From a virus, in IMG/VR virus record IMGVR_UViG_3300025133_000040, positions 47,832 to 111,831 of that record: a stretch of 64,000 nt of DNA; one strand, given 5' to 3'. Made by a program: the position numbers and the translations under genes. The notes beneath the pieces are model-generated. The model saw only the letters and a list, made by a program, of their open reading frames with translations. It was not told where the DNA came from and ran no database searches. This document shows positions 18,327-44,543 of the stretch, one piece after another. The stretch's first letter is position 1. Each line of letters opens with the position of its first letter.

Positions 18327-18441
18327 CAACTATTACCACCTACCGGCGAAAGTAAGGGTCGAGGGTTCGCCCTGTTATAAGACCACGCTGATAGAACCCG
18401 CAGGTAGCTAGGCGTGCTTAGTACAGACCCTCACATAGTTG
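18327..18441 (-). ncRNA. candidate multiply pseudoknotted RNA in the tRNA-Ile trailer
   Basis: several crossing complementary segments (see findings). Confidence 0.5.
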
Positions 18442-18443
18442 AG

Positions 18444-18517
18444 TAGGTTACCAGGGAGTCGAACCCTGCACATCTGCCTTATAAGAGCAGCCTCCCCAAC
18501 CGGAGGAGCCGTAACCC
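18444..18517 (-). tRNA. tRNA-Ile(UAU)
   Basis: cloverleaf, anticodon loop CTTATAA. Confidence 0.85.
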
Positions 18518-18523
18518 AAAATC

Positions 18524-18826
18524 TTATTCTTCTTCCATCTCTTTAAGTCTTAAGCACTCAGCGACAGGACCATCGTAAAATTCCAAGTCAACGTCCAGGC
18601 TAGAGCACTTGTAGTTGCACATGTCGTCCATAGAAATCAGATAAGGACAATCACCACACCAAAGCTCGCCGCAAACGACTGCGCCCTCAGGCATGTTAAT
18701 GTTCAAAACCTTGTCATAGCACTTCTTACATACGTCATACTCAATTGTCTTGTCCTTGGCTGGACAACGACACTGGCCCATTAGTATTCCACATTGCTTG
18801 CAGACTGTTTTAATGTGTTCAGACAT
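18524..18826 (-). CDS. Cys-rich hypothetical protein
   Basis: multiple CxxC. Confidence 0.6.
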   Translation of the reverse strand: MSEHIKTVCKQCGILMGQCRCPAKDKTIEYDVCKKCYDKVLNINMPEGAVVCGELWCGDCPYLISMDDMCNYKCSSLDVDLEFYDGPVAECLRLKEMEEE

Positions 18827-19034
18827 TAGTCTGCCTATTTCAAAAGATGGACAATGTACATACGATAGCCTTTTTCGTCAACCCTAATTAGGGCGGTGCG
18901 TTGGCTGGCGCTTGGAATAGCCCCTACGGCTTCTCTCTTGGTGTCGTACTCAGCAGTACGAATACCTTTTCCACCGTTGGCTACAGTACGAACTTTGTAC
19001 TTCATCGTTCTTCTCCGGTTAAAATCCTAGTGAG

Positions 19035-19104
19035 TACCAACGGAAGGAATTGAACCTTTCTCACAACGCCTTATGAAAGCGTGCTCCCGCCTCGGGTCGC
19101 TGGT
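19035..19104 (-). tRNA. tRNA-Met/Ile2(CAU), short D-arm
   Basis: loop TTCATAA. Confidence 0.75.
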
Positions 19105-19108
19105 AAAG

Positions 19109-19190
19109 CAGCGGGTGAGGGAATCGAACTCTCGCGCCCTTACGACGACTGTTTTCAAGACAGTTTAGCACGCCAACTGCAATACCCGCT
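19109..19190 (-). tRNA. tRNA-Ser(UGA)
   Basis: loop CTTGAAA, long variable arm. Confidence 0.8.
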
Positions 19191-19194
19191 GTAG

Positions 19195-19265
19195 CTGGCC
19201 CCGAAGGATTTGCACCTTCGCGAAGACATTCAGAGTGTCTCATGCTACTGTTACATCAGGGACCA
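19195..19265 (-). tRNA. tRNA-Gln(CUG)
   Basis: loop CTCTGAA; T-loop TGCAAAT. Confidence 0.85.
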
Positions 19266-19271
19266 GTAAAA

Positions 19272-19832
19272 AAGAGAGCTTTAGCAGTTTATTCTCTCAG
19301 CTTGTGAGGTCAACCTGTTGGTTGACCACTACACGACCTATAACAGCCTTCGCAAGCTTCACCCCTGTCGTTGCAGCTTTAGACCGCACGCAACAGCACG
19401 TTAAATTAGTGGTAGTTGTTCTGGACTTGGTGATTGGTGGTTGCAGCCACCGAACCCCTCATTCGTAAATCTTCAAAGCCTGGGAAGCCAATCCGATTTA
19501 CCCCTTGCGGGCAGCGTCACCAACTTTCGCCGGTAACCGTAGGCACTTCCACCTACCACTATGGTATTTTATTTCCCAGATTCATATTAGCGATGAACCG
19601 ATGACGTACATCAGGAAAACACCCAAAAACTATCGTTCCTTCAAGCAGACACTTGGGATGGCACCCACGCTCTTGCTGTTCAGCTACTAGGTGATTTCTG
19701 TAATGCCACTTACATACTCCACCACGCACCACGACACTGTTAGGGCGATGGTAAGCCCCTCCAACGTACACGCTTTCGTCTATGCTGCAAGCAGCTTGGT
19801 CACCCGTCATACCGAAAGGGTAAACCAGTTTA
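19272..19832 (-). ncRNA. large structured ncRNA, ROOL-like (~560 nt)
   Basis: fills the gap between two tRNAs; many GNRA-capped hairpins; segment GGTGCGTGGTGGAGTATG...TAGCTGAA resembles ROOL as I recall it. Confidence 0.6.
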
Positions 19833-19855
19833 AAGTCCCGACGACAGTGGGACAG

Positions 19856-19924
19856 AGCCTACATCCGGTGTCGAACCGGATAGTCGTCTTTACAAGAGAC
19901 AACGCTGGAGCCGCCAGTGTAGGC
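19856..19924 (-). tRNA. tRNA-Thr(UGU), short D-arm
   Basis: loop CTTGTAA. Confidence 0.8.
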
Positions 19925-20118
19925 TAATTTCGTTCTTCTTCTGGTCGCCAGTGCTCCCAGTTTATTTCAGTCCAACAATCGCTGTAGTCTTCCGTACAGC
20001 GTTCTTCCTCCGTATACTCGTTGTGACAATTAGGACACTCGCCACCGTTCCAGTCTTGTATTATTCCAACCTCGTGCCCGCACCTTGGACAGTCTAGTTC
20101 ATAATCAAATTCTTCCAT
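19924..20118 (-). CDS. small acidic zinc-finger protein
   Basis: CPRC...CPNC; AAGGAAG RBS. Confidence 0.65.
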   Translation of the reverse strand: MEEFDYELDCPRCGHEVGIIQDWNGGECPNCHNEYTEEERCTEDYSDCWTEINWEHWRPEEERN

Positions 20119-20150
20119 GTCACTTCCTTAGGTTTTGCGAAGCAAAACAG

Positions 20151-20217
20151 AGCCTTAGTTCGGAGTCGAACCGAATTAGAAACATTACGAGTGTCTCTGT
20201 CCACCATGGACTAAGGC
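20151..20217 (-). tRNA. tRNA-Thr(CGU), minimal D-arm (67 nt)
   Basis: loop CTCGTAA. Confidence 0.75.
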
Positions 20218-20382: not shown

Positions 20383-20521
20383 AAATTGCCCACTGTCGTG
20401 GGCTCTATCCACCACCGTGAATAGATAAAACCATTGATGCGTTGAGTCTGTCATACTGCGCATCTTTATACGACTCAACCCACATAAGTGACAGCTTACG
20501 GGTCTGGTTGTCGTGGTTTAG

Positions 20522-20636: not shown

Positions 20637-20664
20637 AGTATACACCTAAACCGCCTCAAGTCAA
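20637..20664 (-). promoter_or_regulatory. promoter TTGACT-N16-TATACT driving the left tRNA/ncRNA cluster
   Basis: repeated motif directly upstream of tRNA-Val. Confidence 0.8.
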
Positions 20665-20835: not shown

Positions 20836-21462
20836 TTAGTGATACGAAGTCCCTTTGTCGTGGTGGTCTACACTTTCAGGCTCTATGTGCCTCATGTACT
20901 CCACAATGTCATCCAGTAGCATTGGGGTGTACCTTTCAGAGTTAGGACCATGACAGTCCATGCCCACGTCCATCTGCCTGCCACAATCCCTAGTGTAGGT
21001 GCCATGACAGTGACCATATAGGTTGATAGACCCTCGACCTACCTCGTTCCACGACCCCAGAGGATAGTGACCCATGGTAATCAGCTTCTTACCGTGTCTA
21101 AACTCTCGGTATCGTCTGATGGTGGAGAAATGCTTGGTGTGCGCCTCTCCCTTGAACTTACGATTCTCTGGGTCTAGAGTGTCGTCGTGGTTACCTAGTA
21201 ACAGGTGAATCGTACGGCACTTGATTCGCGCACGCATCCCAGGAATGTCCCTCGGACCCATGGCGAAGTCGCCCAGGTGAATCAGGGTATCGCCCTCACC
21301 AACAACGCTGTTGATGTTGTCGATAATGGTGCTATCCATCTCGTCCACAGAAGCGAAGTCTCGGTAGCCCTTATCCCAGGAGGACAAAGCAGGCCCGCTG
21401 ATATTTACATGGCCGAAGTGAGTATCGGCGGTTACAAAGATTTTATTCATTCTATTCTCCAT
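20836..21462 (-). CDS. calcineurin-like metallophosphoesterase
   Basis: DTHFGH, HLGDF, GNHD, GHCH. Confidence 0.9.
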   Translation of the reverse strand: MENRMNKIFVTADTHFGHVNISGPALSSWDKGYRDFASVDEMDSTIIDNINSVVGEGDTLIHLGDFAMGPRDIPGMRARIKCRTIHLLLGNHDDTLDPENRKFKGEAHTKHFSTIRRYREFRHGKKLITMGHYPLGSWNEVGRGSINLYGHCHGTYTRDCGRQMDVGMDCHGPNSERYTPMLLDDIVEYMRHIEPESVDHHDKGTSYH

Positions 21463-22492
21463 GCTTTAAAGCATACTTGTTGCTGATGACCTTGAAAGAC
21501 AGGGGCTTTCCCAATACCTCGTTCCAGCCACCGCCATTAGCTAGGCGAACCACGATTCCTTCAGCGCGACTGCCGTTAGCGTACTTGGTTTCGTCAGCTA
21601 GTTCTAGCAGGCCCTCTAGTGTCCAAGTAGGACACTCCTCGTCTGCTGGGCCTAGGTAGCACAGGTCTACCATGGTAAGCTCATATTCCTCACAGAACTT
21701 TTTGGTCTGACGGTAGTTCAGAGTGTAGTCCTCTTCAATATCGAACACGTTGAATACCCTGAACTCAGGCTCTTTCAAGCCCTCTCGGTTGTTCTGAATA
21801 CCAGGACCAACAATCTCACCCTGTACGACGCAGTTGTCGGGCAGAGCGGCAAGTGAATACTTTAAAGCCATCCTACCGTAGACACCACCGTCAATCTTTA
21901 GCTCCATATTGCGTGAGCAAATACGAAAATGATTGTCTTCCATAATATAGGTAGCAGATGTACCGTCATGCTTAACAGAGATATAGACTTCCTTACCCTG
22001 AATCTTTTCAATGAGAGAAGGTAGGTTCTGAATCCTTTCCTCGTCTGTCTTTGAGACCAAGTGAGTAGGGAAGTGACCAATAGCATCTGCTGACTGAGGT
22101 GCGGGCTTCTCGTACTTGAGCACTTCCAGTGCCTCGGTTACGTCGTCGCCTTCTGTTACTAGAGGTCGCACAGGAACAGTCCAAGTTACTCCCTCGTCCT
22201 CAACTTCTTCTAATCTATCTAGAACAGATAACGGAAAACAAATTCCCTGTGAAACTACACCACGTAGCTTGATTGTCTTGACTCTGAACTGCTTGTTCCG
22301 AAGGAACTCAAACTCTGGTCGCTCTGGAAGGATAGAATCCAACGCCACGTAGACGCAGAGGTCACCCTCTTTGAACTCGCCCTTCTTGGCGACCACGGTC
22401 CAGCCTAGTACCTTGATTAGCTCTAGGCTATCAGCATTGTCATGTGGCAGTACAGAGGCCACCCTTTGAATTGTTGCTAGTTTGTTACTCAT
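21452..22492 (-). CDS. RNA ligase, DRB0094/Rnl5 family
   Basis: N-terminal OB (HDNADSLE, LRGVVSQG), KTDEERIQN, KHDGTS, QGEIVG, EGIV, SFKVISNKY. Confidence 0.9.
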   Translation of the reverse strand: MSNKLATIQRVASVLPHDNADSLELIKVLGWTVVAKKGEFKEGDLCVYVALDSILPERPEFEFLRNKQFRVKTIKLRGVVSQGICFPLSVLDRLEEVEDEGVTWTVPVRPLVTEGDDVTEALEVLKYEKPAPQSADAIGHFPTHLVSKTDEERIQNLPSLIEKIQGKEVYISVKHDGTSATYIMEDNHFRICSRNMELKIDGGVYGRMALKYSLAALPDNCVVQGEIVGPGIQNNREGLKEPEFRVFNVFDIEEDYTLNYRQTKKFCEEYELTMVDLCYLGPADEECPTWTLEGLLELADETKYANGSRAEGIVVRLANGGGWNEVLGKPLSFKVISNKYALKHGE

Positions 22493-22913
22493 ATTCTATT
22501 ACTACCTCAAAATGCGTCATTGTTGGAAAGTTTTCAGGTCGAATTCTCGCACCGACTCCTAGAAGTCCCGTAAGCATACTGTCACGGGGTTCTTCAATGC
22601 CATTGTAGGACTGGTGGATTTGCCTCTCACTCATAATGACTATGTCTTTATGGAAATGTTCTTTGTTGAACGCCCTGATTACTACACGCATTTAATTTCC
22701 CTCAATATACGCAAGCACTCGCTTACGTTTCTGACATATCTCACAATCGCACCAACCACTGTCACCTCTTTCAGTGTGTGGACAGGGATTAGCAACAAGC
22801 TCATAGAGGTCGTAAGCAAATTCGTTCATTCGCATCCTCTTATTGGTCGCCTCTAGCTTTTCCCTTAGTCCCTCAAAGGCTGTTCCCTCGTAAGATATGC
22901 CCATTGTACCACC

Positions 22914-23129
22914 TTATTCCTCGGAGTCAACCGTTTTTGGGTGTAAAATCTGGTCAACAAGTCTTTTTCTTGTCGGCAGGTCGATGTAGGGACTAGTAGC
23001 CGTACTCCTAGCGAGCATCTCTCGGCTAATCTTGTCGTCTCTAACCGTATTGTAGTTGTCCATGCAGCACTTCTTGAACTTCTTCTTACTGCCACACCCA
23101 CACAATGAATTTCTTCCACGTTTTTGCAT
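22914..23129 (-). CDS. SEC-C motif protein
   Basis: GRNSLCGCGSKKKFKKCC. Confidence 0.75.
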   Translation of the reverse strand: MQKRGRNSLCGCGSKKKFKKCCMDNYNTVRDDKISREMLARSTATSPYIDLPTRKRLVDQILHPKTVDSEE

Positions 23130-23136
23130 AGTCTTG

Positions 23137-23691
23137 CTACCTTTGATTGAGTTGGTTTATCTTATTTAAACTAGGGAAGCTCATAGAAGCCGGTGGCTTC
23201 TCATTTTTATACTTAGCCACGAGCACCTTACGTGCTTCAATGTCTTTCAGCGTCTCTTGGAACCTCGCCTCTGATTCCTCTTGCCACTTCTTTCTCTTAG
23301 TAATTTTCTCGGGGCTATAAATCTTACGATATATAGGAAGCTCGTCAATAGACCCGAGAGGTACATAAGCCACTACCCACCAATACATTCCATCCTCGCT
23401 CTCAAGCATCAGAGAATAGCCATCTTCATCACGGCAAAAGTTATGGAACTCATTCCACCTTGTGTAGCTTTGCACCCAGTCACACGCTAGAAGTTCCTCA
23501 ACGGTTTCAAACTCGAAAGTTTCTTTGTTGGACTCACTAACATCTACAAAATTAGGGTAGTGTTTCTTAGCCTTATGCACTGAGCACCTCCTCAATCTTA
23601 CCCCTAATGGAAGACGTAGGCTCCCACTTGCTGTGCATGTTCTTAATGGTTTCAAGAGGCACACCGTGAGAAGTGTGGCCCACACACGCAA
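23137..23691 (-). CDS. hypothetical protein (true start probably near 23580)
   Basis: N-terminal part of the predicted ORF overlaps the kinase gene. Confidence 0.55.
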   Translation of the reverse strand: MRVWATLLTVCLLKPLRTCTASGSLRLPLGVRLRRCSVHKAKKHYPNFVDVSESNKETFEFETVEELLACDWVQSYTRWNEFHNFCRDEDGYSLMLESEDGMYWWVVAYVPLGSIDELPIYRKIYSPEKITKRKKWQEESEARFQETLKDIEARKVLVAKYKNEKPPASMSFPSLNKINQLNQR

Positions 23692-24073
23692 TAGGGTCGT
23701 ACCGCCAAGAGGTATCAGGCTCTAGCACTTCTACCTCGTAGCCGTACTTCTTAGCCAGCAACACGTAGGGCTTGATTTCCTTCCAAGTGATATTGGTGTT
23801 GTCAATAATCACCGTATTCGTAGGGGGTAGCACTTCGTCTACCATATACTCCTCGGCTCGTTCTTTGTTCCAGGCATGAGCCTCACCAATCCTTCGCATG
23901 TTGAAGTCGTAGTGCCCGTCAGGACGTAGCCAGTAGCTATCAGTAGAGCAGACGCGAGACGACCAGTTCATGCTCACCCCTAGTTCGCCAGCAGTCGCAC
24001 GTCTAAACTCGTTCACAGCGGTGCTCTTACCGCTTCCAGGTAAGCCCCTGGCAATAATTAATCGCTTCTTCAT
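23573..24073 (-). CDS. P-loop polynucleotide kinase-like protein (AAA_33 / N4BP2-like)
   Basis: RGLPGSGKST, STD, IIDNTN, HGVP. Confidence 0.85.
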   Translation of the reverse strand: MKKRLIIARGLPGSGKSTAVNEFRRATAGELGVSMNWSSRVCSTDSYWLRPDGHYDFNMRRIGEAHAWNKERAEEYMVDEVLPPTNTVIIDNTNITWKEIKPYVLLAKKYGYEVEVLEPDTSWRYDPIACVGHTSHGVPLETIKNMHSKWEPTSSIRGKIEEVLSA

Positions 24074-24074
24074 T

Positions 24075-25211
24075 TTAGTTTTCCTTATCAGCCTGGGGCT
24101 TTACCATCTTCCAAATGGCCTCGGAGTAATCCTTGCCATCAATTATCATAAACACTAGGTTGCGGTACTTATAGTTGGTCATTCGCTGAGCAATAGCCTT
24201 GCGATTACCCTTATGCTTGGTCACCTCTAAGTACTTCGCCTTGGCCTCGGCCTCGATAGTGTCGTACTCAGCCTGGAAACCATTAGCCATGTCCATAACA
24301 TAAGTATAGAACTCGTCCGGTACTTTGTCAAGCCACTTATTTAAATCTTGGTTGTGCCGAAGCTGTTCCCACACTCTCTTAGGGGTTACGCCCGTCATAA
24401 TCTTGTGCAGCCTACAGTACTCGTCGAACTTAAACTTCATGCGGAAGTTCTTGAGCGTTGGGTAAACCAGGACGTAGCCCTCTTCGTTTTCAGGCTGGTC
24501 CAGAGTCTCCAACTGAGACAAGTAGTTCGCACCTTCTAAGGGCTCGATGGAATTCCAACCAGCCTTCTTAGCCTTCTCGAATAAGTCCCAGCGGTCCTGA
24601 CCGTCCCAGTTTTCAGTGACAGCAAGTAGCCGTAGCTCCTCAGTGTCGCCGTAGTCTAGAACGATGCGGTTCTCTGGGTAGATAATTTCTACCAGATATG
24701 TACATTCGGTGTCACAACCTTCAAGAATCTCGTCGTAGTCACGTAGCATCTCACGACCCTTGTACGCCTGTGGAGACGCAAAGGAACCACGAGTAGCAAT
24801 GTCCCACCGACCCTGCATTGGGCTGAAGAAGACCACGCCTAAGGAACCATCCATCTTTGGGTAAGCCTTGAAGGGCTCAGCATGGATGCGACCTAGGAAT
24901 TCCTGGTACTTCATACCGTACAGGTGCTTGGTCCGGTTACGGATAACTGGAATCTCACCCACGTTGAAGAACTTGGTGAACGGTCGAGCAACAATGTTGT
25001 TGCGGTGGTCTAAGACCAAACCACGACACATCATGGTAGCTTCGTCCCACTTGGCTTCAATCTGAGTGTTCGTTGTGTAGTTATAGATAAAGAGCGTGTC
25101 TTTTGGGTGTTCACGTACGGATACGTAGCCCTGCGATACACGCTCCTGAATCTTTTCTAGTAAGTTGTTTTCAAGTCTCATAACTTCATCCTTATAACCA
25201 GGGCTTCTCAC
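24075..25211 (-). CDS. T4 Rnl1-family RNA ligase
   Basis: CRGLV, RPFTKFFN, KMDGSLG, ATRGSF, EGYV, KFKFDEY. Confidence 0.92.
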   Translation of the reverse strand: MRSPGYKDEVMRLENNLLEKIQERVSQGYVSVREHPKDTLFIYNYTTNTQIEAKWDEATMMCRGLVLDHRNNIVARPFTKFFNVGEIPVIRNRTKHLYGMKYQEFLGRIHAEPFKAYPKMDGSLGVVFFSPMQGRWDIATRGSFASPQAYKGREMLRDYDEILEGCDTECTYLVEIIYPENRIVLDYGDTEELRLLAVTENWDGQDRWDLFEKAKKAGWNSIEPLEGANYLSQLETLDQPENEEGYVLVYPTLKNFRMKFKFDEYCRLHKIMTGVTPKRVWEQLRHNQDLNKWLDKVPDEFYTYVMDMANGFQAEYDTIEAEAKAKYLEVTKHKGNRKAIAQRMTNYKYRNLVFMIIDGKDYSEAIWKMVKPQADKEN

Positions 25212-25554
25212 CCATCTTTACCCGAACATCATTACCTATCTTGCGAGAGTATTCAATCATCTGTTTGGTTCCACGGCTTTTACCGTCCCAAAACGCAACA
25301 GTAGCATCGGCATAGTCTGCCATCTCAATGTTGCGTAGTATTCCAGCCTTCTTTCCTAGGCCATCCCAGTCTGCGGGACATCTCTTGACCGCAATCCCTC
25401 TTTCGTTGGCCCACTTCTCCCCTAGTGTATCTGCCCCTCTAGCACAACCGCAAACTACTTCTGTAACATTGCCGTTTGTGTTGAGGTAATCCATACAACT
25501 AGAAAGATAATCATAGTCTTTAAAATCTCTGGAACCTACTATTGCCACTCGCAT
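25192..25554 (-). CDS. SLOG/YspA-like (DUF2493) protein
   Basis: GSRDF, GCARGAD, AGILRNIEMA, FWDGKSRGT. Confidence 0.88.
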   Translation of the reverse strand: MRVAIVGSRDFKDYDYLSSCMDYLNTNGNVTEVVCGCARGADTLGEKWANERGIAVKRCPADWDGLGKKAGILRNIEMADYADATVAFWDGKSRGTKQMIEYSRKIGNDVRVKMGEKPWL

Positions 25555-25567
25555 AAATGTCCCGCCC

Positions 25568-26155
25568 TTAAAATTGAATCCTGTTCATCTTGTTCTGTTC
25601 TACGTGTGCATCATACAGCGTGTTGTAGTTAAACACCCTGCCAACGTCGTCGTACGCTTGTCTCATTTGATTGGCGCATTTTCTCGGCGTCATCCTGCCA
25701 GTAGCAGTACATAGCCCTGGACATAGGATGCTTTGAATTTCGTTGAAATCCTCGTCAAAACTTAGAGCAGCACGAAATGCTAGGTAGGCATTGATTGTAT
25801 TACTAACATCCTCTGGGACTCTCATAGTTGGAGCACAGATAAGATGAGGTAATGCACAGCCAAGCGTTGGAACAATCATAGCTTCGCCCACTAGAAGCTC
25901 TCCGTTGACAAGAGACCTTAACTCATGTTGTAGTCTAACCTGTAGGTCCGTACCAAAGTAGTTGGTGTACACTTGGTCGATGCCACCGTCCATAAACCCG
26001 AAGGAATTAGCTGGGCTAATCACAGCGTCGGCATCCATGTGTTCGCCTGGGGCAAAAATCTTACCGTGGCTAATGTGTACGTTGTCACAACCTTTGAACG
26101 CTCTCGTCCACTCAGCTACTAGGCTGAGGTTTAAGTCTCTAAGATAAATTTCCAT
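25568..26155 (-). CDS. macrodomain (ADP-ribose binding/processing) protein
   Basis: SPANSFGFMDGGID, APTMRVP, PGLCTATG. Confidence 0.9.
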   Translation of the reverse strand: MEIYLRDLNLSLVAEWTRAFKGCDNVHISHGKIFAPGEHMDADAVISPANSFGFMDGGIDQVYTNYFGTDLQVRLQHELRSLVNGELLVGEAMIVPTLGCALPHLICAPTMRVPEDVSNTINAYLAFRAALSFDEDFNEIQSILCPGLCTATGRMTPRKCANQMRQAYDDVGRVFNYNTLYDAHVEQNKMNRIQF

Positions 26156-27087
26156 TAGTATGATTTGTCCTCTCGGTATCTGTCACTCGAAATTTTAGCA
26201 GTACCATTGTCTTGATACTCTTCCCACTCATCCACCGCTGCGCGAGACACATGCTCAACGATAGCGTCGTTGTTACACATGTACATGCCAGCGCAGGAGA
26301 AGGAGCCAATCTCCAAGACCTTTGTCCTACCGGACTTGGTCCTACAAACATCTAAACTCCACACTCTGTCGGGTGAGTAGTCTAAGCTATCAACCACCCC
26401 TTGAGCGTACTTCCAGGTCTCAGCCTCCTCGCCAAGCTCTGTTCTTGTTGGCCTGTACTTAGACCCAGCGATAACTTTGTCGCCCACCACCACGAACCTG
26501 TATTCTGCCACAACATTTACCGGATAGGTAATGATGCACAACTCGTTATCAGGAACGTCATAGAAACCCAGCGTTTCTAGGTCTCTCTCAAAGTGTTCCT
26601 TCTGTACAGCCTGACCAGTGAAAATCTTATTGCCTGCATCGGGCCTGATGAACACGGTATTAGACTGGCCGAATGTTTTAAAAATGAATTCCTTCTGACG
26701 TAGTAGGTCTCCGTAAGGGAGAATCATATACTCGTCGCCATTAAGTAGTTCGCTCTTGAACTTAGGGTAGTAGTTGACACACCTGAACGCATCCCAGTTA
26801 CAATACACACCAGGAATCCACTTGGCTTCCTTGCGAATCATATCACAGAACTGAATCGACCCACGAATAACTACGCAGTCATCGTCGTCGAAGAAGTCCA
26901 GGTAGTTCTTCTTCATGTTTCTAAACTCGTTGGAGGGGAAGGACGCATACAGAAGACCCTCTTTGAGCTTCTGTTCCTCCTCCTCGTCGAGTGACTTGTA
27001 TATTATATCATACTTCGCCAAGGACGCAAGTAGTTCTGTCTCATTTTCTTCAAATACTAGGCTTTCAATCAACCACTTAGCTTTCAT
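26155..27087 (-). CDS. ATP-grasp protein (DUF4343/R2K-like)
   Basis: FIRPD..KIFTG, EYRFVV, LEIGSFSCAGMY. Confidence 0.8.
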   Translation of the reverse strand: MKAKWLIESLVFEENETELLASLAKYDIIYKSLDEEEEQKLKEGLLYASFPSNEFRNMKKNYLDFFDDDDCVVIRGSIQFCDMIRKEAKWIPGVYCNWDAFRCVNYYPKFKSELLNGDEYMILPYGDLLRQKEFIFKTFGQSNTVFIRPDAGNKIFTGQAVQKEHFERDLETLGFYDVPDNELCIITYPVNVVAEYRFVVVGDKVIAGSKYRPTRTELGEEAETWKYAQGVVDSLDYSPDRVWSLDVCRTKSGRTKVLEIGSFSCAGMYMCNNDAIVEHVSRAAVDEWEEYQDNGTAKISSDRYREDKSY

Positions 27088-27091
27088 CGCG

Positions 27092-27499
27092 TCAGTCCTT
27101 CAAAATTAAATGTCCGAATGTTAAATGAAACGGGAACTTAAGTTCCGACCTGAGCCCTAACTCAGCCCTTATGTCTGAAAGGGTGGGGCAGAACACAGGA
27201 AGCCAAAACATCCCGTCTCGATTCTGTGGGCTACCGTACTCAAACTCTACTGTGTCTCCCTCGTACTTCCCCCAGTGCTGGGGGTACACAGGGCTTTCGT
27301 AAGTCCCCGCCACCAATGTAATGTGCGGCTCTCGCTTGCCAGGGTTTAGTCTGCGCGTCTTGTTCTTTGCCAGCCAATATAGGTGACGATAGTACTTGAG
27401 GATGCTCGGGTCAACCAGGACCAGTGCCCAGGAACGTCCATACGTGATGGTTCCAGTTGTCTTATACATGTTTCTATCCAGAGCATGGTAGTATCTCAA
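27092..27499 (-). CDS. 2H phosphoesterase
   Basis: two HxT motifs (HITL, HLTF). Confidence 0.75.
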   Translation of the reverse strand: MRYYHALDRNMYKTTGTITYGRSWALVLVDPSILKYYRHLYWLAKNKTRRLNPGKREPHITLVAGTYESPVYPQHWGKYEGDTVEFEYGSPQNRDGMFWLPVFCPTLSDIRAELGLRSELKFPFHLTFGHLILKD

Positions 27500-28105
27500 A
27501 GCCCTCTAGTTTAATTTCTCCAGTGGTTTTTACGCGACCACCGTCACAAAAATTGCCTAGCTTATGCCTCGTCATACACTCTTCAAAAGCGGCTCTCACA
27601 CCATTTAGAACCTCCTCGTCTCTTTCTGTTTCCCCATAACAAAATTGCATAACACTATGGATGGCCTGTACCTCGTTATAGTCTAACCCAAACTCAAATT
27701 CGTCTGGAATCTCTGCGTAGTGTCTAGCCATTATGCTTCTTTCACCCCACCTATATGCTCAGGAAACTTCCAAACGTCCATTGCCCAGTCAGTATCGGCA
27801 TACATATGCCCATAATCAAGCCCTGCGTAATCACATATGACCTTGACTGCGTCGATAGCACCCAGGTTGTCGCCCTCAGCAACCAGCTTGTTGCAAATGT
27901 AGACGCCAACCCTAGGGCCGTGCTCTTGTTCTACTATAGTAATGTCACTCATTAGCCATTTTTCCTATATAATATCCCTGCAAGGAGTTGCAAAGTGCCA
28001 CTAAAGAGCAGGCAACACCCGCCCCTGGCATGTCCTCTACAACAATCAGCCCGTACGAAATCATAAAACAATTTAATAGTATCATAAGATATGATGCCGC
28101 AACCA

Positions 28106-28465
28106 TTAGCAGAGTACCTCCATCTCAATATCATTATTATGGTAGTAGGTAATCTCCCACTCAGTCCTAAGCAGGCGGTCGTCGAGCAGTTCAACGCCCC
28201 TTAGTTGAGCGTCGTTAGAGTCTAACAACTCACAGAATTTAGTTACTTCTGACTGCCGACCGACCTTAAACCTGCGTACAGAATGACCCGTAGGCTTCTT
28301 ATCCACAGGACAAATCTCATACAGACTAATGGAAAATTCCTTACCGTTTATAGGGTGAATCACCACGGCATCCCTAACCGCCTCAAACCGCACGAACTCA
28401 TATACGGTGTCATACCTGTCTACAACAAGGTCTCCCGCTACTAAATCACCAATGAATTTAACCAT
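28106..28465 (-). CDS. hypothetical protein
   Basis: coupled ORF. Confidence 0.6.
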   Translation of the reverse strand: MVKFIGDLVAGDLVVDRYDTVYEFVRFEAVRDAVVIHPINGKEFSISLYEICPVDKKPTGHSVRRFKVGRQSEVTKFCELLDSNDAQLRGVELLDDRLLRTEWEITYYHNNDIEMEVLC

Positions 28466-28968
28466 TCATTTGCCTCTTCCTGTGGAACCGCGTTCATGTC
28501 CTCGGCAGGAGGGGTAACGAACCTCCCTAGCCGCCCTAACTTCTTGCCTGCCCCATTCTCGTCAACGTCTCCGACAACGACGATAGGGCGACCTCTTGTG
28601 ATTAGCTTCCAGTAACCTAGGAACGCCTTACCAGGGGTAGAAGTCAGTGCAGCCACGCAAGAGTAGCCCGCATTGATAACCCTGATAGCGTCCCAGACTC
28701 CCTCAACAACGAACAGAGTCTCGGTCTCATAGAAATGTTCAAGCCCCCACAGCATACAGTAGGACTTGTTAGCCTTGTTGATGTAACGACCGCCAATCTC
28801 GTTGCTTCGCAGCTTAGGAGCGGCCCAGTTGTATCGGGAGTATCCTAGGAGTTTGCCGTTTCCCAAGGTTCAGAGAGGAAACCTTACGATTTCCTCCTTC
28901 CAGTCCACCCAGCAGCGGATTCTGTCTGTCAGTCCTCGCTCTGTTAGATGGTCTTTGAAGTTATTCAT
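28441..28968 (-). pseudogene. TOPRIM/primase-like protein with in-frame TGA at 28870-28872
   Basis: MNNFKDHL...RFPL*TLGNGKLLGY in one frame; VEGVWDA and DVD TOPRIM motifs; ATG 6 nt after TATACT. Confidence 0.7.
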
Positions 28969-28974
28969 ACCTAT

Positions 28975-29002
28975 AGTATACACTAAAGCGTGGTGGAGTC
29001 AA
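28975..29002 (-). promoter_or_regulatory. promoter TTGACT-N16-TATACT (probable leaderless transcript)
   Basis: repeated motif. Confidence 0.75.
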
Positions 29003-29064
29003 GCGAATCCATAAAAAAAGCCCAGGAAAACCTGGGCCTCTCCACTTTATTTGCAGTTAAGTGT

Positions 29065-29406: not shown

Positions 29407-29604
29407 TCACAATCTTAAGAGGTAGCTCGTCAACTTGACCAAGTAAGAAACCACGAATAGTAGCATCGTCCTTGTCTGCTCTTACAAGCTTGACACTCAT
29501 GCCGTCTTGAAGGTCGAGGATAAAGTCTTTGATTAGCCCCTTGACTTCGTCAATTCCTTCATCGGCCTTAGACATTGTGCCGTGAGCGTGCTGCTCTAGT
29601 CCGT

Positions 29605-30279: not shown

Positions 30280-30282
30280 AAG

Positions 30283-30371: not shown

Positions 30372-30477
30372 AAAAATCAACGGTGGTTAACCCGTCTAGG
30401 CCCTCTTCGGGTCGGCCATATGAACCTTTGTATACATCACAGCGTTCCACTTGTGAGAGGTTAGTAGTGTTATCGCA

Positions 30478-36964: not shown

Positions 36965-37228
36965 ATAAAAAGGCGAATCGTCTGACATTCGTCTAGGCTT
37001 TTCAGCCTTCCCCACCATTACGTGAATGTGGCAATTACTCACCACCCAAAGATGCACTAACCCGACTATCACTAGGTCGCTCACGCCCTAAGTCTGTTTA
37101 GCTTGCACGCATTGTGGTACAAGCGGCCTAAGCCTCCCACAAGGAGCGATTGTGCCCTGAACTTGTCCTCTAGGTGCTACGCACCCAGCGTCAGACTATA
37201 TAGCCAGGGTTCTGTAAATTCGTCTCAT
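36965..37228 (-). ncRNA. candidate independently transcribed structured RNA (~265 nt)
   Basis: own promoter, many hairpins, terminal hairpin plus T run, no ORF. Confidence 0.65.
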
Positions 37229-37234
37229 GTCTAA

Positions 37235-37262
37235 AGTATACACTAGAACGGGCTGGAGTCAA
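37235..37262 (-). promoter_or_regulatory. promoter TTGACT-N16-TATACT
   Basis: repeated motif. Confidence 0.8.
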
Positions 37263-37272: not shown

Positions 37273-37298
37273 TAAAAAAAGCCACCTTTCGGTGACTT
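37273..37298 (-). terminator. terminator of the main tRNA array
   Basis: AAGTCACC GAAA GGTGGCTT followed by a T run. Confidence 0.8.
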
Positions 37299-37932: not shown

Positions 37933-38769
37933 AAAAGGGTCAATGAGACTATAATCACCATGAGTAATCTTTTGTTGTCGTACTCACAACGTCCGTTGGA
38001 CGATTTACGCCTCCGAAGAGAACTCCTGCCAGGGAGTCGATTAACAACGTGTCCACCTACCAAGTAGGTAATCACTCGCGACTGCAATATTTAAGAGCCT
38101 GCGTTAGCTCTATCTAAACAACTACTCAACCGCATCCATTAACTCTGCCTTGCGAGCAGTTCAACTCCGCTAGGAGTTTAGTCGCTTTCCTCGATTAACT
38201 TGATTGACCTTGCGAGTCGCCCAAGTCAGTATTACCCCGAAGGGCTACCGAATTAAGTCGCTTTCGTTGTCTAGTGTGTCAGGACTTTTGCTTTGGTTAA
38301 AAATACAGGAATCGAACCCATACAGATTGTTTGATACAACAATTGCCCTACCGTTAGGCTAATTTTCATTTGGCGAGAGACGTGCTGACACAGTTGCTCC
38401 ATATCCTTTTGGGATGCAGAATACAACACGCCTCTCTGTACAGAGTCTTGCGGACTCTTATACCGTAGTTCAAGAGAAGGTGTGCCCCCTCTCTCTCATA
38501 CTACCACATCCCACTTGTTTGCAGCTTGCAGAATGTAGTTACTGTTCCTTCCTCAGAAGTAAACTGTTAAATCCCTATCCCAGGCTATCACCTCTGGGAA
38601 GTAGTCGATAGTGTTACCCTCGTGCTACTTTCAGGCAGTCGTTCTTCCTATTGCCCATTACAGGACAACAAGGAAAGGTCAGCTTGAATGAATGGACTCT
38701 TACGAGCGACAGCTTGCCACGCTGCCTTTGGGGAGATTGCTCTCCTTACCCTAATGACTTCATACAGCC
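37933..38769 (-). ncRNA. GOLLD-like giant RNA (~840 nt)
   Basis: lies in a tRNA array; GTGTTGTATT..CAAAAGG..AGCAACTG segment, CTCGCAAG hairpins, 3' TAGTCTCA, embedded tRNA-like element. Confidence 0.75.
38294..38368 (-). ncRNA. tRNA-like element embedded in the GOLLD-like RNA
   Basis: D and T arms, encoded CCA, non-canonical anticodon loop TGTATCAA. Confidence 0.65.
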
Positions 38770-38772
38770 AAG

Positions 38773-38840
38773 TGGAGGTACAGGAAATCGAATCCTGCTA
38801 TCTTCTCTGCCAGAGAAAAATCTTGCCCACAAGCACCCCC
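38773..38840 (-). tRNA. tRNA-Ala(GGC), short D-arm
   Basis: loop CTGGCAG, G3:U70. Confidence 0.8.
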
Positions 38841-41338: not shown

Positions 41339-41345
41339 ATAATTA

Positions 41346-41415
41346 TAACACTACAGGATTCGAGACCTGCACCTCCTCCGCTCATGGAGACGAACCTCAA
41401 TTAGTCTAAGTGCCA
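41346..41415 (-). pseudogene. degenerate tRNA-Leu(GAG)-like
   Basis: 6-nt loop ATGAGC, 8-nt T-loop. Confidence 0.5.
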
Positions 41416-41420
41416 TAAAG

Positions 41421-41492
41421 CTGCCGCTGCGGGAGTTGCACCCACATTTCCCTGATGTTTGTCAGGTTGCCCTACTGTTGGACGAAGCGACA
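41421..41492 (-). ncRNA. tRNA-like element with unreadable anticodon loop (CAAACA)
   Basis: intact acceptor, D and T stems. Confidence 0.6.
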
Positions 41493-41496
41493 TCAA

Positions 41497-41608
41497 AGCA
41501 ACTCTGTACCATCCCAACATACGCTTTCGCAAGACAGACTACAGGAAGGTGGTAAGCCGTATCCTGCGTACTTTTCATCTCATCACGCCGTATGCGGGCA
41601 AAGCCGCA
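41497..41608 (-). ncRNA. candidate ~112-nt rod-shaped RNA
   Basis: long irregular hairpin filling the gap between tRNAs. Confidence 0.55.
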
Positions 41609-41610
41609 AG

Positions 41611-41683
41611 CTCTCAGTCCAGGTAACGCTCCTGGCAACATCTGGTTAACAGCCAGCGCCGTTCACTTGCTCGGTCACTGAGA
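41611..41683 (-). tRNA. tRNA-Asn(GUU)
   Basis: loop CTGTTAA; atypical T-loop AGCGTTA. Confidence 0.8.
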
Positions 41684-41737
41684 GTGTTGTGTCATGCTTG
41701 TTCTTAAAGTATAACACGGTTTCAGTTGGGGTCAACC

Positions 41738-42697: not shown

Positions 42698-42710
42698 GCT
42701 TAGTTCCTTA

Positions 42711-42980
42711 TTATTCGTCGAGTTCCGATACTATAATACATTTATTAGTATCTGTATATTCCGAACCCGCAGTCATTGCTCCAGGCCCTTCAACTCCGCT
42801 GTAGTAATAGCTTTGATTAATGGCACTAATGCCATTTGATACGTTTTCTAGCTCGTTAAGCATAGCAGTACGAACACTTGTCAAACCTGTCACTAACCCC
42901 GCCACCAATATGCCGCTAAGCATAATATATTCAGCAGAAATAATCCCGCCGATTTCATCGTTCCATAGTCTTTGTAGCAT
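42711..42980 (-). CDS. Flp/type IVb pilin-like protein (planctomycete type)
   Basis: LWNDEIG/GIISAEY prepilin pattern, hydrophobic helix, INQSYYYSG. Confidence 0.8.
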   Translation of the reverse strand: MLQRLWNDEIGGIISAEYIMLSGILVAGLVTGLTSVRTAMLNELENVSNGISAINQSYYYSGVEGPGAMTAGSEYTDTNKCIIVSELDE

Positions 42981-43014
42981 GACTTATGTCTCTCTATATT
43001 AATAATTAATTGCA

Positions 43015-43086
43015 AGTTTGACCGCAGGAATCGAACCTGCCCCTCCTACTACGAGCAGGCGTGCTACCACCATACACTTGGTCGCA
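43015..43086 (-). pseudogene. degenerate tRNA
   Basis: T and D arms present, 5-nt anticodon loop, mismatched acceptor. Confidence 0.55.
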
Positions 43087-43087
43087 G

Positions 43088-43159
43088 TAGGGTATCGGAG
43101 AGTCGAACTCCGCGCTCCCTGCTCCCAAAGCAGGTGTCACACCCCGCGACTTATACCCT
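43088..43159 (-). tRNA. tRNA-Pro(UGG)
   Basis: loop TTTGGGA. Confidence 0.85.
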
Positions 43160-43163
43160 AGAC

Positions 43164-43421
43164 TTATCTTTTACTAACAGATGGGCCATAAACCCCTCCG
43201 CTAATCCTCCAAAGTTTCTTAGCCTTTCTTAAGGAGGTAGCAAATTCATCAGCTTCTTCCTTTGTTGGAAAAGCTTCTACTTCTTTATTTAGTTCTCCAA
43301 GAACCCCATAATTACAAAACCAAATCGACCCCCAAGTTACATACCAAAGTTGAATTGCTTCAACCGTGTGTGTTTCATTGGAGACCAAGGTCTCAATCTT
43401 TTTCTTCTTAAACGGCCACAT
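43164..43421 (-). CDS. hypothetical protein
   Basis: start MWPFKK after AGGAAAGAAAGG. Confidence 0.6.
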   Translation of the reverse strand: MWPFKKKKIETLVSNETHTVEAIQLWYVTWGSIWFCNYGVLGELNKEVEAFPTKEEADEFATSLRKAKKLWRISGGVYGPSVSKR

Positions 43422-43470
43422 AGCAACCTTTCTTTCCTGTTTCAAATTCCTAGGTGAGCAAAGCTCACAG

Positions 43471-43555
43471 TGAGAAGTAAGGGAATCGAACCCCCTGCCG
43501 CCACCGCACATATTAATGGCCAGTGGGCTACAACCACCGATGCGGAATACCTCTC
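43471..43555 (-). tRNA. tRNA-Tyr(GUA) lacking a D-arm
   Basis: loop TTGTAGC, 10-nt D-replacement loop, large variable arm. Confidence 0.75.
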
Positions 43556-43692
43556 ATGTTTTGCCAATAGTTACCGTCCACGGTTCTCTAGTAACTATTT
43601 ATTCCTGATGATTCAGAGCAACCCGAACCAGCTCTCAGCCTTTATCAGCGAACTTTCATAACTACCTACCGTCAGCAGTTATTACAAGCAAG

Positions 43693-43765
43693 CCACCTAG
43701 ACGGGAGTCGAACCCGCAACGCTCCGGTAGACAACCGGACCCCATTACCGTATGGGCTCTAGGCG
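43693..43765 (-). tRNA. tRNA-Asp(GUC)
   Basis: loop TTGTCTA, G73. Confidence 0.85.
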
Positions 43766-43789
43766 AAATAAGTGAGCGTTAGCTCACAG

Positions 43790-43861
43790 TAGGCAACCAG
43801 GGAATCGAACCCCATCCGATGCGTCCGAAGCGCATTGTGCTATCCATCACACCCGTCACCC
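43790..43861 (-). tRNA. tRNA-Arg(UCG)
   Basis: loop CTTCGGA. Confidence 0.88.
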
Positions 43862-43865
43862 AAAG

Positions 43866-43938
43866 TGGTGCCCTAGGGAATCGAACCCTACTACGCCGAA
43901 CTTCAACCGGCTGCCGTCACCAGATTAGCTAGGACACC
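43866..43938 (-). tRNA. tRNA-Phe(GAA)
   Basis: loop TTGAAGT. Confidence 0.88.
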
Positions 43939-44543
43939 ATAATATTCATGTTCAAACTTACCCATGACCATTACTGTCCTCTTGCAAGGACTTGTAATGT
44001 TCTTTACTCTTTTTCTGCCAAAAGGACACTTGGCCTACCGCAATCGGAAAGAAGTCATAGACTTCAACCAAGTTCTCGTAGGTAAAATGGGCATATGAAG
44101 GAAACTCACTACCCATAGGTCTGTAGACCCCGCCGTGTTCCTCAACATACTCAAAAATACAGCTATCATCAGGTCTCACTAAGTATCTCGCCTTCATTGG
44201 ATGGTCTCACCCTCATGCCCAGTAATTGCAGGCATAAACGCTCTTGCAAGCTCAGCTCGCCGTTCTGCCCAATCATCTTTAGACTTGCTAAAAACAGCCA
44301 TTAAGCTATCTGCACACTCCAAAGCCAACTCAAACGCATCTACTGAACCATCGCTCATACATATTTTCCTTTTATGTTATAGCTAAGGCACCTTCGTTAG
44401 GGTGCTAAAATGAAAAAAGCGTCACCAATTATGCTGCGCGGAGGTCCGTACCCTTATCGGCCCCATTATCATTACCATGATAAAAGGCGAGACGTTCGGG
44501 TTTTTGGGCCAACGGCCATAAATTGATTAAAGTATTCATAGAG

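What the first reader, a model, noticed from the sequence alone, without database searches (positions are those of the whole stretch)
18327..44540. Phage RNA hub: tRNA arrays used as a scaffold for two giant RNAs plus many unassigned structured RNAs
Seen: almost every ORF-free gap between tRNAs is filled end to end by a densely base-paired sequence (18327-18441, 19272-19832, 20386-20519, 30380-30475, 37933-38769, 41497-41608, 43560-43690, 44415-44540). One more such RNA has its own promoter (36965-37228). The same genome segment encodes two RNA ligases, a PNK-like kinase, a 2H phosphoesterase, a CCA enzyme and a tmRNA. Known: GOLLD and ROOL occur in phage tRNA clusters and have no established function. 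Inference: tRNA punctuation releases a set of ncRNAs that work together as an RNA-based system, for example a decoy against anticodon nucleases or an RNA scaffold. This is my best candidate for an undescribed system here.
Basis: partly seen in the sequence, partly recalled or inferred. Interest (0 to 1): 0.88.

Follow-up and report, generated by a model that had tools for sequence, protein, structure and literature searches.

The report
New large RNA beside GOLLD in phage
A marine phage's tRNA gene island carries one known giant RNA (GOLLD) and a second, conserved and intricately folded 580-nt RNA that matches no described family (it is not ROOL), while the many small "structured RNAs" claimed between the tRNAs are ordinary spacers, leaders, trailers, missed tRNAs or tRNA mimics.

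Summary
Partly confirmed. The window is part of a 112-kb IMG/VR marine phage contig. Its genes, all on the minus strand, include at least 32 CCA-less tRNA genes, a tmRNA, a CCA-adding enzyme and RNA-repair genes.

- **GOLLD:** 37943-38436 is a bona fide GOLLD (Rfam, 171 bits). The full unit is about 37933-38771. A tRNA mimic precedes it and a tRNA-like insert lies inside it. All of this is known biology.
- **The 580-nt RNA is not ROOL:** 19266-19854 gives no Rfam match even at E<=10, although the ROOL model finds its positive control at 130 bits.
- **It is a real conserved structured RNA:**
  - It is 77% identical to a copy in a second phage lineage.
  - 34 of 175 predicted pairs changed on both sides and kept pairing, against 1-10 in slid controls.
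  - Two pseudoknots covary, there is no conserved ORF, and tRNAs or tRNA-like elements abut it at both ends in every lineage.
  - Contigs from four metatranscriptome libraries contain it.
- **The small gaps:** six elements fold no better than coding segments of the same window (p=0.16). None is conserved in the relative. Only 20386-20519 stands out (z -4.6).
- **No co-operating "RNA hub":** the relative lineage has the 580-nt RNA but no GOLLD.

The scan had noted this RNA before, but only in this same genome.

The parts
19266..19854 (-). New ~580-nt ornate RNA. About 25 helices, several multistem junctions, at least 2 covarying pseudoknots, a 5' hairpin (19835-19853) and a 3' hairpin plus U-run (19274-19298).
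   Evidence: Homologs at 77% (G006 lineage) and 97% (L103). Covariation. No Rfam family matches. Not coding. Present in RNA-library contigs.
19855..19924 (-). tRNA-Thr(UGU), CCA-less, directly 5' of the new RNA. A tRNA-Thr(UGU) or tRNA-Thr(UGU)-like element lies upstream of the RNA in all three lineages: directly 5' of it in the window and L103, and separated from it by a 115-nt tRNA-like piece in G006.
19194..19265 (-). tRNA-Gln(CUG), starting at the first base after the new RNA's annotated 3' end (19266), two bases after its U-run. In G006 a tRNA-Met(CAU) is in this place, and in L103 a 5'-truncated tRNA-Met remnant.
19499..19549 (-). A core block of the new RNA (GGAAGUGCCUACGG followed by two GNRA hairpins), recovered on its own, without the neighbouring parts of the RNA, in several RNA-library contigs.
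   Evidence: contigs of 442-583 nt match only this block, at about 82-86% identity
37933..38771 (-). GOLLD RNA. The Rfam-modelled 3' domain is 37943-38436 and the less conserved 5' domain runs to about 38771.
   Evidence: 171.1 bits, E 2.6e-46. Fold z -3.3. RNA-library contigs cover 38019-38732.
38294..38368 (-). tRNA-like insert in the GOLLD linker, with an abnormal anticodon loop. It is the only tRNA-shaped element here with an encoded CCA.
38772..38840 (-). Non-decoding tRNA mimic directly 5' of GOLLD. It folds into a cloverleaf with an 8-bp 'anticodon' stem and a 3-nt loop, and ends N73-C-U like the real tRNAs.
20386..20519 (-). 134-nt spacer between tRNA-Val(UAC) and tRNA-Arg(CCU). It is the only small gap with an outstanding fold (three hairpin units) and may be a small stable RNA. 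Its sequence is not conserved in G006.
   Evidence: z -4.64, 0 of 200 shuffles fold as well; -4.66; no similarity to the G006 spacer of the same size
20637..20664 (-). Promoter (TTGACT-16-TATACT) of the operon tRNA-Val ... 580-nt RNA ... tRNA-Ile. It is one of 14 near-identical promoters in the window.
18247..18441 (-). 3' trailer after tRNA-Ile(UAU), ending in a strong intrinsic terminator (18247-18266). It contains the claimed element 18327-18441.
   Evidence: z -1.7 for the whole trailer
36965..37262 (-). Separate transcription unit: promoter 37235-37262, then about 265 nt of non-coding sequence with a weak terminator-like end. It is either an sRNA or a long 5' leader of ORF 36682-36897. 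Function unassigned.
   Evidence: z -1.8; no Rfam hit, no RNase P; no counterpart in G006
37279..37298 (-). Intrinsic terminator closing the GOLLD-containing tRNA operon, which starts at the promoter at 40687-40714.
41339..41735 (-). Promoter (41708-41735) plus a ~360-nt leader ahead of tRNA-Leu(UAG). It contains the claimed element 41497-41608 and shows no unusual folding.
   Evidence: z -0.41
43471..43556 (-). tRNA-Tyr(GUA) with a long variable arm, missed by ARAGORN. It bounds the claimed element 43560-43690.
   Evidence: aligns to the G006 tRNA-Tyr
20836..31161 (-). RNA repair and tRNA maturation gene block: metallophosphatase, PHA02142-type RNA ligase, AAA_33 kinase, Rnl1, SLOG (YAcAr), Macro, R2K ATP-grasp, 2H phosphoesterase and CCA-adding enzyme.

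Best explanation
The region is a large phage tRNA island. It is organised as several sigma-70-type promoter-to-terminator operons that mix CCA-less tRNA genes, tRNA mimics and small (often zinc-ribbon) ORFs.

Two large ornate RNAs are carried as cargo in these operons.
- One is GOLLD, a known family.
- The other is a previously undescribed ~580-nt RNA class at 19266-19854.

Shown:
- The 580-nt RNA is conserved, folds into a complex covariation-supported structure with pseudoknots, does not code for protein, and matches no Rfam family, including ROOL.
- It occurs in contigs assembled from RNA libraries.

Inferred:
- Host RNase Z or RNase P cleavage at the abutting tRNAs releases both large RNAs as discrete stable molecules. 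The phage's own CCA-adding enzyme then completes the tRNAs.
- By analogy with GOLLD and ROOL, the new RNA acts in trans during infection, possibly as a self-assembling RNA-only particle.

The remaining small gaps are ordinary operon furniture: a leader, a trailer with terminator, spacers, missed tRNAs and tRNA mimics. They are not a set of co-operating ncRNAs.
For: GOLLD:
- 171 bits.

Conservation of the 580-nt RNA:
- 77% identity over 590 nt to phage G006 (E 2e-120). The neighbouring metallophosphatase is only 52% identical at protein level, and the adjacent spacers cannot be aligned.

Structure:
- RNAalifold gives 175 pairs, of which 34 changed on both sides and kept pairing.
- In one search, 95.6% of cells are paired, against 39-48% when the partners are slid. 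The covariation score is 0.324 against 0.06-0.11, and 0 of 500 shuffles reach it.
- Of 70 variable pairs, 55 keep pairing.
- One hairpin (19307-19328) is wholly replaced by a different hairpin in the 97% relative L103.
- Two loop-to-strand pseudoknots carry 1 and 2 covarying pairs.

Not coding:
- The 83-aa ORF is absent from the other lineage, and substitutions fall 24/21/23 over the three codon phases.

Not a known family:
- No Rfam match at E<=10.
- The ROOL model scores 130 bits on its positive control, plasmid pMP118. nhmmer and blastn find no similarity between the two RNAs.

tRNA context:
- tRNAs flank the RNA directly in all three lineages.
- No decoding tRNA gene encodes CCA, and the phage has a CCA-adding enzyme.
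- Promoters and terminators define the operons.

RNA libraries:
- Contigs from four metatranscriptome libraries (three studies) match 19275-19735 at 84-100% identity and GOLLD at 38019-38732.

Small gaps:
-, and no conservation.
Against: - The depth of comparison is shallow. There are effectively two lineages plus near-identical variants, so covariation rests on few independent events. No R-scape-type statistic is possible.
- Four conserved-block scans of IMG/VR, one metagenome scan, one scan of species genomes, and a covariance model run on 78 other phage loci found no further members.
- The RNA libraries were chosen because they hold this sequence, they are contigs and not reads, and DNA carry-over cannot be excluded. 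Ends, strand and abundance were therefore not observed.
- Processing by RNase P and RNase Z, and any trans-acting or multimeric function, are inferences by analogy.
- 20386-20519 (z -4.6) and 36965-37228 (own promoter) could still be real small RNAs.
Confidence: 0.8

Rival explanations
1. The tRNA arrays scaffold a coordinated multi-RNA system: GOLLD, ROOL and seven or more small structured RNAs are released by tRNA punctuation and work together, for example as decoys against anticodon nucleases.
For: - Both large RNAs are flanked by tRNAs.
- RNA-repair genes typical of counter-defence against anticodon nucleases are adjacent.
- Two non-decoding tRNA mimics exist.
- One small spacer folds unusually well.
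Against: - The small gaps are not more structured than coding controls, and none is conserved in G006.
- ROOL is absent.
- GOLLD and the 580-nt RNA do not co-occur in the G006 lineage.
- The slot of the 580-nt RNA is empty in L116 and holds a 279-aa ORF in L117. It behaves as exchangeable cargo, not as part of a fixed system.
Confidence: 0.07
2. The 580-nt RNA is a highly divergent ROOL, the same family beyond the reach of the Rfam model.
For: - Its length (~580 nt) is the same as the ROOL average of 581 nt (PMC5737381).
- It has the same kind of context, a phage tRNA island.
- It has many junctions and pseudoknots.
- ROOL has few highly conserved nucleotides (PMC5737381), so sequence models may miss distant members.
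Against: - No cmscan match at E<=10 with permissive filters on a 701-nt slice or in the whole contig. The same model gives 130 bits on a true ROOL.
- nhmmer with --max at E<=100 finds nothing between the two RNAs.
- The ROOL consensus has a long helix closing the 5' and 3' ends and a central variable linker. The new RNA has only a weak four-pair A-U contact between its ends (AAAA with UUUU) and not a long closing helix, and its centre is its most conserved part.
Confidence: 0.08
3. The 580-nt element is not a functional RNA. It is decayed tRNA-array spacer or selfish filler that is conserved only because the two phages are closely related.
For: - Only two lineages are known.
- The slot is variable among relatives.
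- The fold z-score of the single sequence is modest (-2.5).
Against: - At 77% identity it is as well conserved as the flanking tRNAs, while the neighbouring intergenic sequence cannot be aligned.
- Runs of up to 51 identical bases alternate with stems that changed on both strands.
- Pairing is kept in 79% of the variable pairs.
- Related sequences turn up in RNA libraries from vent, sediment and other samples.
Confidence: 0.05

Closest known systems
ROOL RNA (Rfam RF03087; Weinberg et al. 2017, PMC5737381; cryo-EM octameric nanocage, Kretsch et al. 2025, PMC12286853)
   Same: About 580 nt, non-coding, many multistem junctions and pseudoknots, located in phage tRNA islands, function unknown.
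   Different: - No match to the ROOL covariance model, and no sequence similarity to a verified ROOL.
- Different overall architecture: only a weak four-pair A-U contact between its ends instead of a long terminal closing helix, and a conserved centre where ROOL has a variable linker.
- Found in marine phages and not in Bacillota or rumen phages.
GOLLD RNA (Rfam RF02032; Weinberg et al. 2009; 14-mer nanocage, PMC12286853)
   Same: The element at 37933-38771 is a member. It lies next to tRNAs and carries a tRNA-like insert in its linker, as described for other GOLLDs. The new 580-nt RNA shares GOLLD's genomic habit: it is embedded in a tRNA operon and abutted by tRNAs.
   Different: The 580-nt RNA has no similarity to GOLLD. 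The G006 lineage carries the 580-nt RNA without GOLLD.
Phage T4 tRNA-cluster stable RNAs (species 1 and 2, rnaC/rnaD), from my own knowledge of the T4 literature
   Same: Small (~140 nt) stable RNAs of unknown function, co-transcribed with phage tRNAs and cut out by tRNA processing. This is the best analogy for the 134-nt spacer 20386-20519.
   Different: No sequence relation was tested or is expected. Stability of the 20386-20519 RNA has not been shown.
Phage tRNA repair and supply modules (T4 Pnkp plus Rnl1 against the PrrC anticodon nuclease; the RNA-repair gene neighbourhoods catalogued by Burroughs and Aravind), from my own knowledge
   Same: Rnl1-type ligase, kinase, phosphatase, 2H phosphoesterase, Macro, SLOG, R2K ATP-grasp and CCA-adding enzyme lie next to a large tRNA set.
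   Different: This concerns the proteins. Nothing ties the large RNAs to the repair function.

Membership tests
GOLLD (RF02032), for 37933-38771 | Match to the conserved 3' domain covariance model above the gathering score | tested here: met
   171.1 bits against 150, all 416 model positions matched
GOLLD (RF02032), for 37933-38771 | Variable 5' domain giving a total length of about 800 nt, next to tRNAs, with an optional tRNA in the linker | tested here: met
   ~840 nt between a tRNA mimic (38772-38840) and tRNA-Lys (37926). tRNA-like insert at 38294-38368.
GOLLD | Homo-14-mer nanocage assembly | not testable with these tools
   Needs cryo-EM or native gels
ROOL (RF03087), for 19266-19854 | Match to the ROOL covariance model | tested here: not met
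   No match at E<=10. The positive control scores 130.4 bits.
ROOL (RF03087), for 19266-19854 | Architecture: long 5'/3' closing helix, central variable linker, conserved blocks such as GGAUAC, ACAAUAGACG and GGGUGAAAGUUGG | tested here: not met
   Consensus compared with the structure: only a weak four-pair AAAA/UUUU contact joins the ends, not a long closing helix, and the centre is the most conserved part. No nhmmer or blastn similarity.
ROOL | Length ~580 nt, phage tRNA-island context | tested here: met
   589 nt, flanked by tRNA-Thr and tRNA-Gln
Structured non-coding RNA (generic), for 19266-19854 | Compensatory base changes beyond controls, and no conserved reading frame | tested here: met
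   Caveat: effectively only two lineages.
RNase P RNA, for 36965-37228 (suggested by another first-stage note) | Match to any Rfam RNase P model | tested here: not met
   No match at E<=10. A circularly permuted form would escape these models, so this is inconclusive for that specific idea.

The most novel reading that the evidence does not exclude
The 580-nt RNA founds a third class of large 'ornate' phage RNAs of tRNA islands, alongside GOLLD and ROOL. Like them, it assembles on its own into a symmetric multimeric particle after being cut out of a tRNA operon by the tRNA-processing enzymes. A conserved invariant loop pair (GUGGCA with UGCCAU) and two hairpin loops that contain 4-nt palindromes (UGCA, ACGU) would be the candidate contacts between or within chains.
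Probability: 0.3. Interest if true: 0.85.

Novelty: new variant of a known kind. Interest (0 to 1): 0.66.

Why it matters
Very few large, intricately folded bacterial or phage RNAs without a known function are known (GOLLD, ROOL, OLE, raiA, HEARO). Two of them, both from phage tRNA islands, were recently found to form RNA-only nanocages.

An independent third family in the same genomic niche, in one phage next to GOLLD, would show that phage tRNA operons are a recurrent home for such RNAs.

It would also offer a compact new target for cryo-EM and for genetics. The natural comparison set is already at hand: phages with the RNA, with an empty slot, and with a protein gene in the slot.

The negative result matters too. 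Apparent 'dense pairing' in short inter-tRNA gaps, as read by eye, is not above the coding background in this genome.

Tried and rejected
**ROOL**
- Rejected by cmscan with a positive control.
- Sampling 120 Clostridia genomes for a ROOL example found none. One earlier attempt failed on the server.

**Search for more family members**
- Four exact or degenerate block scans of IMG/VR returned only the G006-lineage contigs.
- The single metagenome scan added a 97% and a 99% variant and one chance hit (L105, coding).
- The scan of species genomes gave three chance hits in coding DNA.
- nhmmer over all fetched loci found nothing new.
- A covariance model of the domain 19407-19561 over 78 phage loci plus the ROOL locus found nothing new.
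Their contigs (up to 252 kb) could not be inspected.

**Phage database**
- Nothing similar in the 50,697 GenBank phage records.

**Read laying**
- Almost no contigs lay on the ~17 kb of protein genes between the two RNAs.
- This cannot be used as evidence. The runs were chosen by the RNA, most contigs come from relatives whose coding DNA would fall below the 80% likeness limit, and a part without cover proves nothing.
- No contig bridged an RNA-tRNA boundary, and no ends could be read from contigs.

**RNase P idea for 36965-37228**
- No Rfam support, no counterpart in G006, fold z -1.8. A permuted form could not be tested with the tools available.

**ORFs in the claimed gaps**
- The 59-aa frame over 41497-41608 looks spurious, and no PHROG matches it.
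- Two other inter-tRNA gaps that are conserved in G006 (37538-37684, about 39618-39790) turned out to be small CxxC zinc-ribbon protein genes, not RNAs.
- An apparent 860-nt gap in G006 is a 251-aa ORF.

Full report
**Source and layout.** The window is bases 47832-111831 of a 111,831-bp IMG/VR viral contig, estimated 74% complete. All genes in 17-46 kb run on the minus strand. ARAGORN finds 30 tRNA-type genes. Rfam adds one at 37454-37525, which folds as tRNA-Gly(UCC). Alignment with a related phage shows two more that ARAGORN missed: tRNA-Tyr at 43471-43556 and tRNA-Cys(GCA) at 36077-36146.

No decoding tRNA gene encodes CCA. Each ends N73-C-U, and adjacent tRNAs are only 3-5 nt apart. The phage encodes a CCA-adding enzyme at 30478-31161.

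Fourteen near-identical promoters (cTTGACTCCAg...GTGTATACT) lie on the minus strand. Together with intrinsic terminators at 18247-18266 and 37279-37298, they divide the island into operons that mix tRNAs, small ORFs and non-coding stretches.

**Proteins.**
- PHA02142-type RNA ligase (21452-22492)
- Rnl1 (24075-25211)
- AAA_33 kinase (23573-24073)
- metallophosphatase (20836-21462)
- Macro domain protein
- SLOG (YAcAr) protein
- R2K ATP-grasp protein
- a likely 2H phosphoesterase (27092-27499; HITL and HLTF motifs; 2H-SAK E 2e-4, below the curated cut-off)

This is a recognisable phage RNA-repair and tRNA-maturation set. That statement rests on established knowledge of T4 Pnkp/Rnl1 and related systems.

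**GOLLD.** Rfam places GOLLD at 37943-38436 with 171 bits against a gathering score of 150. The unit runs from about 38771 to 37933, just ahead of tRNA-Lys(UUU).
- Directly 5' of it lies a 69-nt element (38772-38840). It folds into a clean cloverleaf but has an 8-bp 'anticodon' stem with a 3-nt loop. It is therefore a non-decoding tRNA mimic.
- Inside the linker sits a second tRNA-like element (38294-38368). It is the only one with an encoded CCA.
- Location next to tRNAs and tRNAs inside the linker are already described for GOLLD (PMC12286853).

**The second large RNA.** The stretch 19266-19854 was proposed to be ROOL. It is not.
- cmscan of the island at E<=1, of a 701-nt slice at E<=10 with permissive filters, and of the whole contig with the ROOL model all give nothing.
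- As a positive control, the same model finds the published ROOL of Ligilactobacillus salivarius plasmid pMP118 at 130 bits.
- nhmmer and blastn find no similarity between that ROOL and this RNA.
- The ROOL consensus has a long helix closing its 5' and 3' ends and a central variable linker. The present RNA has only a weak four-pair A-U contact between its ends, not a long closing helix, and is most conserved in its centre.

**Conservation.** A related phage (G006, IMGVR_UViG_3300025133_000038, 119 kb) was found through a neighbouring protein and compared whole.
- The RNA is 77% identical over 590 nt (E 2e-120).
- The adjoining metallophosphatase is 52% identical as protein, and the neighbouring spacers cannot be aligned.
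- Further copies are a 97% variant on a 13-kb metagenome contig (L103) and 99% variants of the G006 form (L102, L104).

**Structure.**
- RNAalifold on the five sequences predicts 175 pairs in about 25 helices. In 34 of these pairs both sides changed and pairing was kept.
- The controlled count gives 95.6% of cells paired, against 39-48% when partners are slid by 1-3 columns.
- The same count shows 34 doubly changed pairs against 1-10 in the slid controls, and a covariation score of 0.324 against 0.06-0.11. No shuffle out of 500 reaches these values.
- Of the 70 variable pairs, 55 keep pairing.
- In the 97% relative, one hairpin (19307-19328) is replaced wholesale by a different hairpin.
- Two loop-to-strand pseudoknots carry covarying pairs: columns 11-15 with 75-79, and 103-107 with 123-127. 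An invariant loop pair, GUGGCA with UGCCAU, could form a third contact.
- The 83-aa frame in the window copy is absent from the other lineage. Substitutions are spread evenly over the codon phases, 24/21/23.
- The caveat is depth. There are effectively two lineages, so the changes are few independent events.

**tRNA context of the new RNA.**
- In the window it starts right after tRNA-Thr(UGU), and tRNA-Gln(CUG) begins at the first base after its annotated 3' end, two bases after its U-run.
- In G006 the order is tRNA-Thr(UGU), a 115-nt tRNA-like piece, the RNA, then tRNA-Met(CAU) and tRNA-Gln(CUG).
- In L103 a tRNA-Thr(UGU)-like gene precedes it, and a 5'-truncated tRNA-Met remnant follows its 3' hairpin and U8 run.
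- More distant relatives, reached through the metallophosphatase, show the same slot empty (L116: Thr(UGU) and Gln(CUG) 5 nt apart) or filled by a 279-aa ORF (L117).
- The RNA therefore behaves as exchangeable cargo of a tRNA array.
- That tRNA processing releases it is an inference from this layout. So is the release of GOLLD.

**RNA libraries.**
- The index of public runs lists near-complete copies in marine metagenomes, and partial matches in four metatranscriptome libraries from three studies: hydrothermal vent, 'outdoor', and two marine sediment.
- Laying their contigs shows pieces 84-100% identical to 19275-19735. One 152-nt contig has no difference at all. Longer contigs (442-583 nt) match only the block 19499-19549.
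- Pieces also lie on GOLLD at 38019-38732.
- This shows that relatives of both RNAs are present in RNA libraries.
- It does not show ends, strand or abundance. The runs were chosen by this very sequence.

**The small gaps.** Fold z-scores are listed under the observation check. Coding segments of the same window average z -1.00 (sd 1.15), so the six small gaps (mean -1.74) are not distinguishable from them (p=0.16).

| Element | What it is |
|---|---|
| 18327-18441 | Part of the trailer between the last tRNA of an operon and its terminator |
| 41497-41608 | Inside a 360-nt leader downstream of a promoter; leader z -0.4 |
| 43560-43690 | Between tRNA-Asp and the missed tRNA-Tyr |
| 30380-30475 | Shows no structure |
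| 36965-37228 | Has its own promoter and a weak terminator-like end; no Rfam match (RNase P included) and no counterpart in G006 |
| 20386-20519 | The only outlier (z -4.6); no sequence counterpart in G006 |

36965-37228 may be an sRNA or a long leader. 20386-20519 may be a small stable RNA like the T4 species 1 and 2 RNAs, which is an analogy from memory.

**System or not.**
- G006 keeps the 580-nt RNA, Rnl1, the kinase, the phosphatase and the CCA enzyme. It lacks GOLLD, the second ligase, Macro, R2K and the radical-SAM gene.
- Nothing links the RNAs functionally to each other or to the repair genes beyond being neighbours.

**Verdict.**
- The finding's core observation is half right. There are two large RNAs in tRNA operons. 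One is known, and the other is real but misnamed and apparently new.
- Its extension to many small RNAs and to a coordinated 'hub' is not supported.
- Other first-stage notes on this same genome (e1-6047125, e1-6047137) also called the RNA 'ROOL-like'. The scan holds no look-alike in any other genome.

Noticed in passing
window 18443-44615 (all tRNA genes): None of the ~32 decoding tRNA genes encodes CCA. Every one ends N73-C-U, and neighbouring tRNAs are 3-5 nt apart. This fits obligatory RNase Z processing plus the phage's own CCA-adding enzyme.
   Followed up: partly
window 38772-38840 (-): tRNA mimic with a perfect cloverleaf but an 8-bp 'anticodon' stem and a 3-nt loop, placed exactly at the 5' end of GOLLD. 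It is possibly a pure processing signal.
   Followed up: partly
window 36965-37262 (-): Stand-alone unit with a consensus promoter. Another first-stage note proposes a circularly permuted RNase P RNA (ACAGAACCCUGGCU ... AUAGUCGGGUU can pair like P4). There is no Rfam RNase P match at E<=10 and no homolog in the related phage. A permuted form could not be tested.
   Followed up: partly
window minus strand: 1421, 6353, 12891, 17240, 20664, 29002, 31649, 37262, 40714, 41735, 44680, 45159, 53155, 63658: Fourteen near-identical extended promoters (cTTGACTCCAg-N-GTGTATACT/TATAAT). The related phage G006 has only two matches to the core pattern.
   Followed up: partly
window 37538-37684, ~39618-39790, 19924-20118, 18524-18826 (-): Small CxxC...CxxC zinc-ribbon ORFs are scattered among the tRNAs. 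The first two are conserved in G006 with a coding pattern of substitution.
   Followed up: partly
L116:12383-12530 and L117:12339-13409: The slot between tRNA-Thr(UGU) and tRNA-Met/Gln(CUG) is empty in one relative and holds a 279-aa ORF in another. It looks like an insertion hot spot within the tRNA array.
   Followed up: partly
window 17643-18268, 21460-22692 versus L103: A ~96% identical relative (L103) lacks the sulfotransferase gene and the PHA02142-type RNA ligase and has different flanking tRNAs. This is fine-scale mosaicism in the island.
   Followed up: no
window 35552-35611: Six short contigs of one vent metatranscriptome (X13) pile up here at 80-85% identity, on both strands, inside ORF 35233-35979 (no Pfam family). 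Unexplained.
   Followed up: no
window 17647-18339: The long frame of the sulfotransferase ORF runs across the strong terminator at 18247-18266. The real start is probably downstream of it (the Pfam match begins at residue 44).
   Followed up: no
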